A program made the translations under genes and the position numbers. Source: the human T2T-CHM13v2.0 reference genome, Homo sapiens. From it: DNA of 64,000 bases. Within the stretch, counting starts at the first letter, position 1. Each line of letters starts with the position of its first letter. Location: assembly GCF_009914755.1 (NCBI RefSeq), contig NC_060927.1. One strand, 5' to 3'. Under the pieces are notes generated by a model that had not been told where the DNA came from, ran no database searches, and saw nothing but the letters and a program-made list of their open reading frames with translations. Shown here in pieces: positions 609-3,315 of this stretch.

Positions 609-1164
609 AACTCCCCTTTTGTAGAGAGAAATGTATAAAGGAAATTTTCGTTAGTAAAGATATCTATACCAGGAAGAAAGCTGCTTTGAGCCAGCTTTTA
701 TTACCTGAGACACTCTTATCTGCATAACAAGGTAACCTTTATTTCCACCATACATTTCCTCCCCTCACCCTCCTACGATCTGTCTCTACTGTTCCCTAGA
801 AGCCCCAAACCCTTATGCCTTTCTGTAGTTCAGATTAAGTGTCAATCATCTGGCCTATCTTTTTTTTTTTTTTAAGAGAGAGATGGGGTCTTGCTATGTT
901 GCCCAGGTTGGTCTCAAACTCCTGGGCTTAAGCAATCCTCCTGCCTCAGCCTCCCAAGTAGCTGGAATTACAGGCATGAGCCACTGTAATTATAGAAGGG
1001 CCCACATTGGCCCTTCTTTGAGTCTTATGTTTTCATGGGGCTCCTGTGTGTGCATATGTACATAATTAAAATGGTTTCCTCCTGTTAACCTGTCTTATGC
1101 CAATTTAATTTGTAGACTAGTTCACTGAGGAGGGTAGACGGAAGCTATTTTCATTTCCCCTACA
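609..1164 (+). mobile_element. MER34/MER4-group ERV1 LTR remnant interrupted by an Alu monomer
   Basis: Ends with TTTCCCCTACA and carries the CCTGTTAACCTGTCTTATG..AATTT block typical of MER34-like LTRs. Confidence 0.5.
860..986 (-). mobile_element. Alu monomer (FLAM-like)
   Basis: Poly-T followed by reverse Alu left-arm sequence (GTTGCCCAGGTTGGTCTCAAACTCCTGGGC...GCATGAGCCAC). Confidence 0.9.
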
Positions 1165-1294
1165 CTTTCAACAGGAGCAGGGGTTGTGATGACTAGAGTG
1201 TGGGCTCCGGGGTCAGATGGTATTATGGGCTAAACTATGTCCCCCTAAAAAGATATGTTGAAGTCCTAATTCCCATTACGTCAGAATGTGACCT

Positions 1295-1954
1295 TGTGGC
1301 AGGCCAGGTCTCACTAATGCAGGCCTCCAGTACAACTGTCCCAGCACTGACTGAGTAGCTAGGTTAAACAGTAAAAGCTGATTGAGCCAGTGCTCTTATA
1401 AAGAGTCTGAAATATAGCAAAGAGCCCAGCAAGAGTTTTGCCTAGGCTTTTCCTGGGCCTTGAAGCATGACAATATAACAAAGGAATTCTTAACAGGACC
1501 TTTTTAGGATTAAACACGTTTTGTTGGGGGTCTGAAATAACTCCCCAGGCCTCCACAAACAAGTTTATTGGCATCTAAAGGAACTCCCCAAATCTTTATG
1601 ATTTAGCAGGAGACAAGATTAGGGTAATCACCCCAGCACCTAGACCCATTTAGACTAAGTAAACTTACTGAGGCTTCAGAGGAAGGTCTTCAGGACTCAG
1701 ACCTTAGTTATAGATTATAAGAAGTTAATCACTTACGTCTTTGAATAAATACACACTTACACATAGATGTACAGCTTAGAAGGTATATAAGCTCTGGAAA
1801 ACTTTATAATTTTGAGTTGGTCTGGCGATAATTTCCAGGCCTTCTCCCTGTAACCAGTTATGGAAATAAAGACTCTCTTCCTTCCCAGTTCATCTGCATC
1901 TCGTTATTGGGCCACGAGAAATAGCAGCCCAACCCTCAGTTTGGTCCAGAAACA
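1295..1954 (+). mobile_element. Complete ERV1 LTR, LTR15 (HERV-I/HERV15)-like
   Basis: TG...CA termini (TGTGGCAGGCCAGGTCTCAC ... GGTCCAGAAACA), TATATAA at 1784-1790, AATAAA at 1865-1870; family name is from memory. Confidence 0.7.
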
Positions 1955-2177
1955 CATCTTCAGCAAGAACCACAAGCAATTCCGCATAATCAGCTGGAAG
2001 CTGGATGAGCTGCACTGCCAGTTCCCGGTTCTGCTGCCAGGCAGCCTGCACTTGCTGCCGCTGCTCACACTCCACTGCAACATCACGGAATCCTATCCAT
2101 CTTCTTCACTGATGTGGTTTGTGGACTCTGATGACCCAAATCTGACATTAGTTCTGGAATGTACTAAGAACAAGTTG
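1955..2177 (+). pseudogene. UBE2Q2: Processed (intronless) fragment of ubiquitin-conjugating enzyme E2 Q2, N-terminal RWD domain
   Basis: The translation [68 protein letters not shown] aligns with the recalled human UBE2Q2 sequence [69 protein letters not shown]; no intron within it. Confidence 0.9.
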
Positions 2178-2211
2178 ACACCAAGAACCTGGACACCCTC
2201 CACTGGTGAGA
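2178..2211 (+). mobile_element. Terminal ~34 bp of a second class I LTR (MER51-group-like U5 end)
   Basis: ACACCAAGAACCTGGACACCCTCCACTGGTGAGA resembles the recalled terminus ...GCCAAGAACCTGGACACCCTCCACCGGTAACA; followed directly by the TSD ACCT. Confidence 0.55.
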
Positions 2212-2334
2212 ACCTTATTTGGAAATAGGGGCTTTGTAGATTTAACTTCCTTCCACAGGTGTTGAGTGCGATAACACCCTCAGTTACGATGAGGTCATTA
2301 GGGTGGGCCCTGATTCAATATGACTAGTGTCCTT

Positions 2335-3315
2335 TGACAAAGAATCTTTGCTTGGCCTTGAAGTTTGCTTCACTCACGTCAGTAATTCTTATAAAACTTT
2401 TCCTGGCCCCATCTGTGTACTTCCTTGTAAAATCCAGTTTTAGCAAAAACAAACAAACAAATGAACAAATGTGAAAGGGAAATATCTTGGGCCCCCCAAA
2501 TCACTAGGCTACAGGGAAAAGTCAAGCTGGGAAACTGCTTAGGGCAAACCTGACTCCCATTCTATTCAAAGTCATCCCTCTGCTCACTGAGATAAATGCA
2601 TATCTGATTGCCTCCTTTGGAGAGGCTAATCAGAAACTCAAAAGAGTGCATCCAATTTTCTCTTATCTACCTATGACCTGGAAGCCCCCACCCCGCCTTT
2701 CCAGACTGAACCAATGTTCAATGTTCATCTTACGTATGTTGATTGATGTCTCATGTCTCCCTAAAATGTATAAAATCAAAATCAAACTGTGCTCTGACCA
2801 CCTTGGGCACATGTCATCAGGACCTCCTGAGGCTGTCATGGGCGTGTGTGCGTCCTCAACCTTGGCAAAATAAACTTCCTAAATTAACTGAGACCTGTCT
2901 CAAATTTTCTGGGTTCACACACACAAACAAAAAACCCTGCTGAAGCAGCTTAGGAGGAAGCTCCTCATCCTCGAGACCTGATCATCCTTGATAGCTGATC
3001 AGGTTCCTCATCCTCCACCATCCCCCAGGTGATGTCTGATCACTCCAGCCTGTCTTCAGCAAGAATCCTAGTGGATTGGTTTAACCAGGATGCCCCTTAC
3101 CACTGATGTTTTCCTCTTGGTAATTTTCCACCCACTGACCCCCACCCCGCTCAGTAGCTATAAATTGGCTCATGTTGTATTCGGAGTTGATTCCAATCTC
3201 TCTCCCCCGCTGCAAGACCCTTTTGCAGTGCTCCTCATACCTATCGCAATGGTCCTGGATAAAGTCTTCCTTGCTGTGTTTTAACAAGTGTCATTGAATA
3301 ATTTTTTCTTTAACA
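2335..3315 (+). mobile_element. MER31 LTR inserted in MLT1 and itself interrupted by MER4A
   Basis: Starts TGACAAAGAATCT, contains CCCATCTGTGTACTTCCTTGTAAAATCCAGTTTTAGCAAA, ends TTTTTCTTTAACA. Confidence 0.7.
2470..2919 (+). mobile_element. MER4A-like LTR
   Basis: TGTGAAAGGGAAATATCTTGGGCCCCCCAAATCACTA ... GGGTTCACA. Confidence 0.75.

What the first reader, a model, noticed from the sequence alone, without database searches (positions are those of the whole stretch)
1291..2215. Host mRNA captured between two different LTR ends and integrated as one unit (LTR15-like + UBE2Q2 cDNA + MER51-like end, single ACCT TSD)
Seen in the sequence: the host MLT1 breaks at GTGACCT (1294) and resumes as ACCTTATTTGGAAATAGGG (2212), so 1295-2211 is one insert with a 4-bp duplication ACCT. 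It starts at the exact TG of a full LTR. After the LTR's terminal CA it runs straight into UBE2Q2 coding sequence with no primer-binding site. It ends in 34 bp that resemble the terminus of an unrelated LTR. There is no poly(A) tail and no long TSD. Established knowledge: L1-made processed pseudogenes have poly(A) tails, ~7-20 bp TSDs and usually keep the 3' end of the mRNA, whereas 4-bp TSDs and TG...CA ends mark class I retroviral integrase. This copy holds only 5' coding sequence. Inference: an ERV particle co-packaged a cellular RNA, reverse transcriptase switched templates among three RNAs, and integrase inserted the chimera. That would be a fossil of retroviral gene transduction in the germ line.
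Basis: partly seen in the sequence, partly recalled or inferred. Interest (0 to 1): 0.9.

Follow-up and report, generated by a model that had tools for sequence, protein, structure and literature searches.

The report
Retrovirus-captured UBE2Q2 fragment in composite LTR
An ancient retrovirus picked up the first two spliced exons of the human UBE2Q2 gene and inserted them into chromosome 3 in one step, sandwiched between the ends of two different retroviral repeats, which leaves a rare fossil of how retroviruses steal host genes.

Summary
Window 1295-2211 is one 917-bp insert in an MLT1-type element, flanked by a 4-bp duplication ACCT. It has three parts:
- a complete 660-bp class I LTR (family A);
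- intron-less UBE2Q2 exon 1 (from about codon 16) plus exon 2;
- the last 34 nt of U5 of a second LTR family (B).

There is no PBS, no poly(A) and no long duplication. No second locus joins exon 1 to exon 2.

New points:
- The UBE2Q2 part runs to 2177, at or within 7 nt of the exon 2 splice donor.
- The B site is acceptor-like.
- A and B proviruses share a tRNA-Arg primer-binding site, a 5-nt spacer and near-identical LTR starts.
- LTR-A and the cDNA are equally diverged (about 6%).

Best reading (0.6): a family A provirus sat in UBE2Q2 exon 1. Read-through RNA was spliced and joined to a U5(B)+PBS segment. Reverse transcription from that PBS gave DNA with a U3(A) end and a U5(B) end, which integrase inserted. 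What remains is probably a solo composite LTR.

Primate orthologues and Dfam names were not testable here. This is a new variant of LTR-mediated retroposition.

The parts
1190..1294 (+). Left arm of the host MLT1-type (MaLR) element. It ends ...GAATGTGACCT.
   Evidence: 5 of 5 other copies read through this point without interruption.
1291..1294 (.). Left copy of the 4-bp target-site duplication ACCT.
1295..1954 (+). It runs TGTGGCAGG...CCAGAAACA, with TATATAA at 1784 and AATAAA at 1865, giving U3-R-U5 on the + strand.
   Evidence: 34 of 40 scored rows span 1-660 at 85-100% identity, from 655 candidates; family ends; motifs.
1955..2087 (+). UBE2Q2 exon 1 coding sequence from about codon 16 (CATCTTC...) to the exon 1 donor (...ATCACG). 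It is joined directly to the LTR's terminal CA with no PBS and no shared bases.
   Evidence: 85% identity to C15:73714479-73714615; exon-intron boundary.
2088..2177 (+). UBE2Q2 exon 2, with intron 1 removed precisely. Relative to the gene there is a 9-nt gap after 2162. 2163-2173 matches exon 2 again at 11 of 11. 2174-2177 (GTTG) stands where the gene has its last 7 nt, CAATTTG.
2178..2211 (+). The window ends GA where the family has CA. Bases 2176-2177 (TG) could belong to either side.
   Evidence: 11 copies at 97-100% identity; the 23-nt core occurs 591 times with up to 2 mismatches, and the reversed control 0 times.
2212..2215 (.). Right copy of the 4-bp target-site duplication ACCT.
2212..2345 (+). 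Right arm of the host MLT1-type element (ACCTTATTTGGAAATAGGG...GATGAGGTCATTAGGGTGGGCCC...).
   Evidence: 733 candidates, with the 39 non-self scored rows covering query 67-133..

Best explanation
The 917-bp unit was assembled as one retroviral DNA and inserted once by a class I (4-bp) integrase.

Most likely path:
(i) A family A provirus integrated, in sense orientation, into exon 1 of UBE2Q2 in a virus-producing cell. This is inferred.
(ii) Transcription read through the 3' LTR into the gene. The RNA therefore carried PPT-U3-R-U5(A), followed directly by the rest of exon 1. Intron 1 was spliced out. The precise intron loss is shown.
(iii) At or next to the exon 2 donor, the RNA became joined to the last 34 nt of U5 of a family B virus and its adjacent primer-binding site. 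This happened either by splicing into an AG-preceded site of a B provirus lying downstream, or by an early template switch of B's tRNA-primed minus strand. The junction is shown; which route produced it is open, at roughly even odds.
(iv) tRNA-Arg priming at that PBS fixed the right DNA end at the last base of U5(B). The A polypurine tract fixed the left end at the first base of U3(A). Both are inferred from the exact ends.
(v) Because A and B use the same PBS, plus-strand transfer could complete a provirus whose two LTRs were both the composite LTR-A + UBE2Q2 + U5(B) tail. Integrase inserted it into the MLT1 element with the ACCT duplication (shown). LTR-LTR recombination later left the solo composite LTR seen today (inferred, about 60:40 over direct integration of a 917-bp mini-DNA).

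The element has no evident present function.
For: - Single 4-bp duplication around the whole unit. LTR-A alone has none: its own flanks are ACCT and CATC. Among 27 distinct full-length family A copies, 16 have a perfect 4-bp duplication, 6 have 3 of 4, and 5 have fewer; 3 of those 5 follow a PPT-like GACAG(T/A)GG(G/T)GAT and are proviral 3' LTRs.
- Both outer ends are exact LTR termini.
- LTR-A ends at its terminal CA and abuts exon 1 at an arbitrary codon. There is no PBS and no shared bases, and neither flanking dinucleotide looks like a splice site: TC lies before CATCTTC in the gene, and AAATT follows the LTR in proviruses. This is the signature of a provirus-host junction carried on read-through RNA.
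- Intron 1 is removed at its GT...AG.
- The junction with B lies 0-7 nt from the exon 2 donor, and nothing of exon 3 follows.
- In B copies the joining point is preceded by AG in 6 of 11, and by 15-16 pyrimidines in 20 nt.
- Four A proviral 5' LTRs read LTR-CA + AAATT or AAGTT + a PBS that matches the tRNA-Arg(ACG) 3'-end complement at 14-17 of 18 positions. Four B proviral 5' LTRs read LTR-CA + TATTT + the same PBS at 15-17 of 18. The tRNA sequence is as printed in PMC7757669 (passages seen).
- The LTR starts are nearly identical: TGTGGCAGG for A and TGAGGCAGG for B. B copies also show roughly 4-bp duplications. One integrase could plausibly use both ends.
- The ages agree. Mean pairwise JC distance among 32 LTR-A copies is 0.13, so about 0.065 per copy. 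The UBE2Q2 part differs from the gene at 11 of 179 non-CpG sites (6.1%) and 13 of 30 CpG sites. B subgroup copies are 77-89% identical to each other.
Against: - No family A or B LTR lies in the present 70-kb UBE2Q2 locus. Both proviruses in the model must have been unfixed or somatic, and having two in one gene is a rare configuration.
- The last 7 nt of exon 2 are represented by only 4 nt (GTTG). One or two of those could come from B. The junction is therefore 'at or within 7 nt of' the donor, not provably at it.
- A 10-of-12 similarity between exon 2 (GATACTAAGAAC) and B (GACACCAAGAAC) lies beside the junction and hints at template switching instead.
- No full-length allele and no sister copy was found (25 of 25 candidates scored), so the solo-LTR step is unsupported by any second copy.
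- The insert ends GA, not CA.
- Primate orthologues were not available.
Confidence: 0.6

Rival explanations
1. A free, fully processed UBE2Q2 mRNA was co-packaged in a virion with A and B genomic RNAs. Reverse transcriptase made two non-homologous template switches (B U5 to mRNA, then mRNA to A U5), and integrase inserted the product.
For: - Chimeras of LTR elements and host mRNA made by template switching are documented in flies, fish, chicken, mouse and human (PMC5131818; abstract, section 6 and Supplemental Table 8 seen).
- A 10-of-12 similarity between exon 2 and U5(B) lies next to junction 2.
- The shared PBS and similar ends make co-replication of A and B plausible.
Against: - The switch from the mRNA would have to land exactly on the last base of U5(A) with zero microhomology.
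- The other switch would fall by chance within 7 nt of an exon end, with no exon 3 sequence kept.
- The exon 2 / B similarity is not used as the actual crossover: both copies of the AAGAAC motif are retained.
Confidence: 0.22
2. Stepwise origin. An ordinary solo LTR-A (or B element) inserted with the ACCT duplication. Later a DNA break at the LTR/duplication boundary captured a cDNA + B fragment as filler. Alternatively, separate nested insertions were trimmed by deletions.
For: Solo LTR-A copies with 4-bp duplications are the norm: 22 of 27 have at least 3 of 4 matching bases. Filler capture at breaks is a known process (recalled, not looked up).
Against: - The filler would have to enter exactly between the LTR's last base and the duplication.
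- It would also have to end exactly at the last base of another LTR. That is two independent single-base coincidences.
- The divergence of the cDNA part equals that of the LTR.
- No deletion scars or remnants of internal viral sequence are present.
Confidence: 0.07
3. L1-mediated processed pseudogene of a chimeric transcript, or a non-retroviral DNA insertion.
For: Intron loss shows an RNA intermediate.
Against: - There is no poly(A) tail and no 7-20-bp duplication.
- The 3' end of the mRNA is absent.
- A full U3-R-U5 LTR starting at its first base cannot be copied from an LTR-initiated transcript.
- The 4-bp duplication and exact LTR ends fit integrase.
Confidence: 0.03

Closest known systems
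LTR-mediated retroposition chimeras (Tan et al. 2016, PMC5131818). The human cases are two FAM8A1 retrocopies in HERVK14 and one retrocopy of ENSG00000176788 in MER4.
   Same: A partial, intron-less host mRNA copy flanked by LTR-retroelement sequence. There are no L1 hallmarks and the 3' part of the mRNA is missing.
   Different: - Here the flanks come from two different ERV families.
- No internal viral sequence is present.
- One junction is at the exact LTR terminus with no microsimilarity, and the other is at an exon end.
- The locus is not among the three human cases in their Supplemental Table 8. One of their supplementary files could not be searched.
Read-through (3') transduction of host genes by retroviruses: the Swain and Coffin 1992 model, seen only as cited in PMC5131818, and acutely transforming viruses (recalled).
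   Same: A provirus upstream of host exons, read-through past the 3' LTR, spliced host exons, and a second join to viral sequence at the 3' side.
   Different: - Transducing viruses normally lose the internal 3' LTR and keep PBS, packaging signal and part of gag.
- Here the complete 3' LTR and its host junction are kept, and the host piece ends up inside the LTR.
- The captured fragment is a non-functional 74-codon piece, not a growth gene.
Retroviral vectors with two primer-binding sites (Voronin and Pathak 2004, J Virol 78:5402; seen only as an entry in the reference list of PMC4227088; paper not held).
   Same: Initiation of minus-strand DNA at a second, downstream PBS on one RNA is the step proposed here to set the right end.
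   Different: That is an engineered system. What proviral structures it yields is recalled, not read. Here the second PBS would come from another ERV family.
Ordinary solo LTR of a class I ERV.
   Same: A single LTR-bounded unit, a 4-bp duplication and no internal genes. Other family A copies look like this.
   Different: It carries 223 bp of host cDNA and 34 nt of a foreign U5 between its own U5 end and the duplication.

Membership tests
Integrase-mediated class I (gamma-like) ERV insertion | 4-bp target-site duplication flanking the unit | tested here: met
   ACCT lies at 1291-1294 and 2212-2215. 5 of 5 other MLT1 copies are uninterrupted at this point. Of 27 family A copies, 16 have a perfect 4-bp duplication and 6 have 3 of 4.
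Integrase-mediated class I (gamma-like) ERV insertion | Unit begins TG and ends CA at exact LTR termini | tested here: met
   The left end TGTGGCAGG is the family A start. The right end aligns to the last base of family B, but reads GA where 11 of 11 B copies read CA, a single difference.
L1-mediated processed pseudogene | 3' poly(A) tail and a 7-20-bp duplication | tested here: not met
   The insert ends ...CACTGGTGAGA followed by ACCT. There is no A-run and only a 4-bp duplication.
L1-mediated processed pseudogene | Intron loss | tested here: met
   Exon 1 and exon 2 are joined at the gene's GT...AG boundaries.
LTR-mediated retroposition by template switching (Tan et al. 2016) | Retrocopy flanked on both sides by LTR-retroelement sequence, with no L1 hallmarks | tested here: met
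   LTR-A lies on the left and the U5(B) end on the right.
LTR-mediated retroposition by template switching (Tan et al. 2016) | Microsimilarity at the fusion points (median 6 bp in their fly set) | tested here: inconclusive
   Junction 1 has 0 shared bases. Junction 2 has 1-2 ambiguous bases, plus a 10-of-12 similarity nearby that is not the crossover.
LTR-mediated retroposition by template switching (Tan et al. 2016) | Host piece replaces part of the internal region of one discontinuous element | tested here: not met
   There is no internal viral sequence, and the two flanks belong to different families.
Read-through (3') retroviral transduction | Complete 3' LTR abutting host sequence at the LTR's terminal CA, with host exons spliced | tested here: met
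Read-through (3') retroviral transduction | Parent provirus upstream of, or within, the captured gene | not testable with these tools
   The present UBE2Q2 locus (70 kb) holds no A or B LTR. An unfixed provirus would leave no trace.
Solo LTR derived from a provirus with composite LTRs | Full-length allele or sister proviruses with the same composite LTR | tested here: not met
   No other locus joins UBE2Q2 exon 1 and exon 2 (25 of 25 candidates scored). Other primates were not available.
tRNA-Arg-primed ERVs (both LTR families) | PBS complementary to the 3' end of tRNA-Arg just downstream of the 5' LTR | tested here: met
   Four A copies match at 14-17 of 18 positions and four B copies at 15-17 of 18, against the tRNA-Arg(ACG) sequence printed in PMC7757669.

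The most novel reading that the evidence does not exclude
This locus preserves, in the human germ line, the actual intermediate of read-through transduction. It holds a proviral 3' LTR still fused at its integration junction to a host exon, and host exons spliced onto the U5/PBS of a second, co-circulating tRNA-Arg ERV. The whole was turned into a composite LTR by priming at the foreign PBS. That would be natural evidence for two-PBS initiation and for hybrid A/B integration ends, and a case of host exons carried inside an LTR rather than in the viral body.
Probability: 0.35. Interest if true: 0.75.

Novelty: new variant of a known kind. Interest (0 to 1): 0.6.

Why it matters
Host-gene capture by retroviruses is known mainly from acutely transforming viruses and from experiments. 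Germ-line fossils in primates are few: the one systematic screen I could read lists three in human (PMC5131818), and this locus is not among them. The symbol UBE2Q2P9 occurs in no paper of the searched library.

This copy keeps base-exact junctions, which discriminate between capture mechanisms (read-through plus splicing against free-mRNA template switching). It also shows that two ERV families sharing a tRNA-Arg PBS and similar LTR ends were active together and could form a hybrid integration substrate.

It has no evident present function. 17 of 74 aligned codons are replaced, so its value is mechanistic and historical.

Tried and rejected
- Pfam and PDB searches with the 86-residue translation found nothing. 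Pfam on three downstream exon peptides of the chr15 gene gave only a sub-threshold chance hit. Identity of the parent as an E2 Q gene rests on three things: one exon peptide matching PDB 1zuo and 2qgx (UBE2Q1), the hub's RefSeq name, and my recollection that 1zuo (LOC92912) is UBE2Q2.
- A local BLAST for other MLT1 copies in the sequence already held found none. This was replaced by a genome search and five small fetches.
- LTR-B was sought in the UBE2Q2 locus. The only hits were to dispersed repeats in the non-LTR flanks of my query segments (Alu-like by my reading), and none involved an LTR portion. LTR-A gave no hit at E <= 1e-3.
- A 15-of-15 match to the LTR-A/exon junction on the minus strand of a UBE2Q2 intron is a chance match: its flanks are unrelated.
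- A wider genome pattern search for B tails gave 591 matches, but the listing was cut before chr15. DNA downstream of the gene was therefore not examined.
PBS regions were obtained from short fetches instead.
- Paper searches for LTR end motifs, made to name the families, gave nothing useful.
- Selection on the open 86-codon frame was considered, because the three gaps are 3, 9 and 3 nt. It was rejected: 17 of 74 codons are replaced, and two of the gaps lie in triplet repeats.

Full report
**What is there**

The window is human chr3, and its whole genome could be searched. Reading 900-2700 shows an MLT1-type repeat that stops at ...CAGAATGTGACCT (1294) and resumes at ACCTTATTTGGAAATAGGG (2212). 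Five other copies of this repeat, found through the conserved right arm and fetched as 141-nt stretches, all read straight through the site with one AC(C/T)T-like tetramer (5 of 5). So 1295-2211 is a 917-bp insert flanked by a 4-bp duplication, ACCT.

**Part 1, LTR-A (1295-1954)**

- A genome search gave 655 first-look candidates, of which 40 were scored. 34 of those 40 rows cover query 1-660 at 85-100% identity.
- Family copies begin TGTGGCAGG and end at the base matching window 1954.
- Of 27 distinct full-length copies, 16 have a perfect 4-bp duplication, 6 have 3 of 4, and 5 have fewer. Three of those five follow a PPT-like GACAG(T/A)GG(G/T)GAT and are therefore proviral 3' LTRs.
- The window copy is the exception. 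Its own flanks are ACCT and CATC, and ACCT only recurs after the whole 917 bp.
- TATATAA at 1784 and AATAAA at 1865 place U3-R-U5 on the + strand.

**Part 2, host cDNA (1955-2177)**

- The only exon 1 match in the genome is C15:73714479-73714615 (85%). Exon 2 matches C15:73725153-73725228 (92%) and 11 further exon-2-only copies on C15, C8 and C24 (25 of 25 candidates scored).
- I fetched 70 kb of the chr15 gene. Exon 1 ends ...ATCACG|gtgagg and exon 2 is cag|GAATCC...AACAACAATTTG|gtaaga. The window joins them exactly at 2087/2088.
- That the chr15 gene is an E2 Q enzyme is shown by an exon peptide matching PDB 1zuo and 2qgx. The name UBE2Q2 comes from the hub's RefSeq row and from my recollection of 1zuo/LOC92912.
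- RefSeq ends the pseudogene at 2156. In fact exon 2 continues to 2162, then 9 nt of the gene are missing, then 2163-2173 (ACTAAGAACAA) match 11 of 11. The last 7 nt of the exon (CAATTTG) are represented by GTTG.
- Nothing of exon 3 (CTTCGTCAG...) follows.
- 17 of 74 aligned codons are replaced, so the piece is not under selection.

**Part 3, U5(B) tail (2178-2211)**

- These 34 nt match the 3' terminus of 11 LTR copies at 97-100% identity. The copies end ...CACTGGTGACA or ...GGTAACA, and the window reads GA for the final CA.
- The 23-nt core occurs 591 times in the genome with up to 2 mismatches. The reversed control occurs 0 times.
- The GGTGACA subgroup has LTRs of about 360 nt starting TGAGGCAGG, with roughly 4-bp duplications. 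Its copies are 77-89% identical to each other.

**How A and B relate**

Pattern searches for an LTR end followed by TGG and short fetches found proviral 5' LTRs of both families.
- A copies read ...GGAACA + AAATT or AAGTT + PBS (four copies).
- B copies read ...GGT(G/A)ACA + TATTT + PBS (four copies).
- Both PBSs match the complement of the 3' end of tRNA-Arg(ACG), as printed in PMC7757669 (passages seen). A copies match at 14-17 of 18 positions and B copies at 15-17 of 18.

So the two families are distinct but share primer, spacer length and nearly the same first nine bases.

**Junctions**

- Junction 1 (1954/1955) is LTR-A's last base against CATCTTC of exon 1. No base is shared, there is no PBS, and neither side looks like a splice site.
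- Junction 2 (about 2177/2178) lies 0-7 nt from the exon 2 donor. In B copies the joining point is preceded by AG in 6 of 11, by AA in 4 and by TG in 1. Of the 20 nt upstream, 15-16 are pyrimidines, so the site is acceptor-like.
- Against a clean splice, only TTG of the exon's last 7 nt survive, and the G or TG could come from B.
- A 10-of-12 similarity between exon 2 and B sits beside the junction, but it is not the crossover.

**Age**

- Mean pairwise JC distance among 32 LTR-A copies is 0.13. The window copy against the others is 0.133, so each copy sits about 0.065 from the source.
- The UBE2Q2 part differs from the gene at 11 of 179 non-CpG sites (6.1%) and 13 of 30 CpG sites.
- The parts are equally old, which fits one event. 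The copies are the best-scoring hits, so the family mean may be somewhat higher.

**Mechanism**

- What is shown: one integrase-type insertion of a pre-assembled chimera, with exact LTR termini at both ends and an RNA (spliced) origin for the host part.
- What is inferred: a base-exact, homology-free LTR/exon junction is what a provirus integrated in exon 1 would hand to a read-through transcript. Such an RNA carries PPT-U3-R-U5(A) followed by the rest of exon 1 and exon 2.
- The right end, at the last base of U5(B), is where tRNA-primed minus-strand DNA starts. So a B-type U5 end plus PBS must have followed exon 2 on the template, or been the starting template.
- Two routes fit. One is splicing of exon 2 into a downstream B provirus. 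The other is an early switch of B's minus strand onto the read-through RNA.
- Because A and B share the PBS, the plus-strand transfer could complete a provirus with two composite LTRs. Recombination between them would leave what we see.
- Use of a second PBS has been reported for vectors (Voronin and Pathak 2004). I saw this only as a reference-list entry, and the paper is not held.

**Rivals**

- Free-mRNA, three-RNA switching needs two unexplained coincidences of position.
- A stepwise origin needs a filler that enters exactly at an LTR/duplication boundary and ends exactly at another LTR's last base.
- An L1 origin is contradicted by the ends.

**Literature**

- Tan et al. 2016 (PMC5131818; abstract, section 6, methods passages and Supplemental Table 8 seen) describe LTR-mediated retroposition. 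They list three human cases: two FAM8A1 copies in HERVK14, and ENSG00000176788 in MER4. This locus is not among them. One of their supplementary files was not searchable.
- UBE2Q2P9 appears in 0 papers of the searched library.
- UBE2Q2 together with 'endogenous retrovirus' and 'LTR' gave one unrelated paper.
- A broader search on ERV gene capture (listing only) showed a crocodilian precedent (PMC4299795), which I did not read.

**Limits**

- There was no Dfam/RepeatMasker tool and no other primate genomes.
The chr15 region beyond the gene was not examined.

Noticed in passing
L077-L080, L075, L076, L086, L087 (proviral 5' LTR ends elsewhere in the genome): Both ERV families have a 5-nt spacer (AAATT or AAGTT in A, TATTT in B) between the LTR's terminal CA and the tRNA-Arg PBS. 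By my recollection, gammaretroviruses usually have 2 nt there. If the spacer is copied into the linear DNA, integrase must trim 5 nt at the U5 end.
   Followed up: partly
L086, L087, L075: In three of the four family B proviral leaders a GTAAG donor-like site follows the PBS within 0-6 nt (…GGAGGAAGAG|GTAAGT in L087).
   Followed up: no
G000 C15 80.3-82.9 Mb and 99.5 Mb, C8:87782126, C24:24665892 and 26285848 (loci L003, L004, L006-L014): Eleven further copies of UBE2Q2 exon 2 (85-92% identical to the window piece) have no matching exon 1. They are presumably the segmental duplicates behind the other UBE2Q2P genes. None is joined to an LTR-A.
   Followed up: no
window 2235-2280: The right arm of the host MLT1 element holds about 45 nt (…TTTAACTTCCTTCCACAGGTGTTGAGTGCGATAACACCC…) that no other MLT1 copy matched. 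Genome hits to 2212-2345 cover only query 67-133.
   Followed up: no
window 1955-2213: The frame stays open for 86 codons from the LTR end to the duplication, and all three gaps against the gene are multiples of three (3, 9 and 3 nt). With 17 of 74 codons replaced, and two gaps in triplet repeats, this looks like chance.
   Followed up: yes
window 900-990 and 2480-2700: An Alu-like tail lies upstream (…CCTCCCAAGTAGCTGGAATTACAGGCATGAGCCACTG). Downstream of the MLT1 element there is a stretch that looks like another LTR. Both are by eye only.
   Followed up: no
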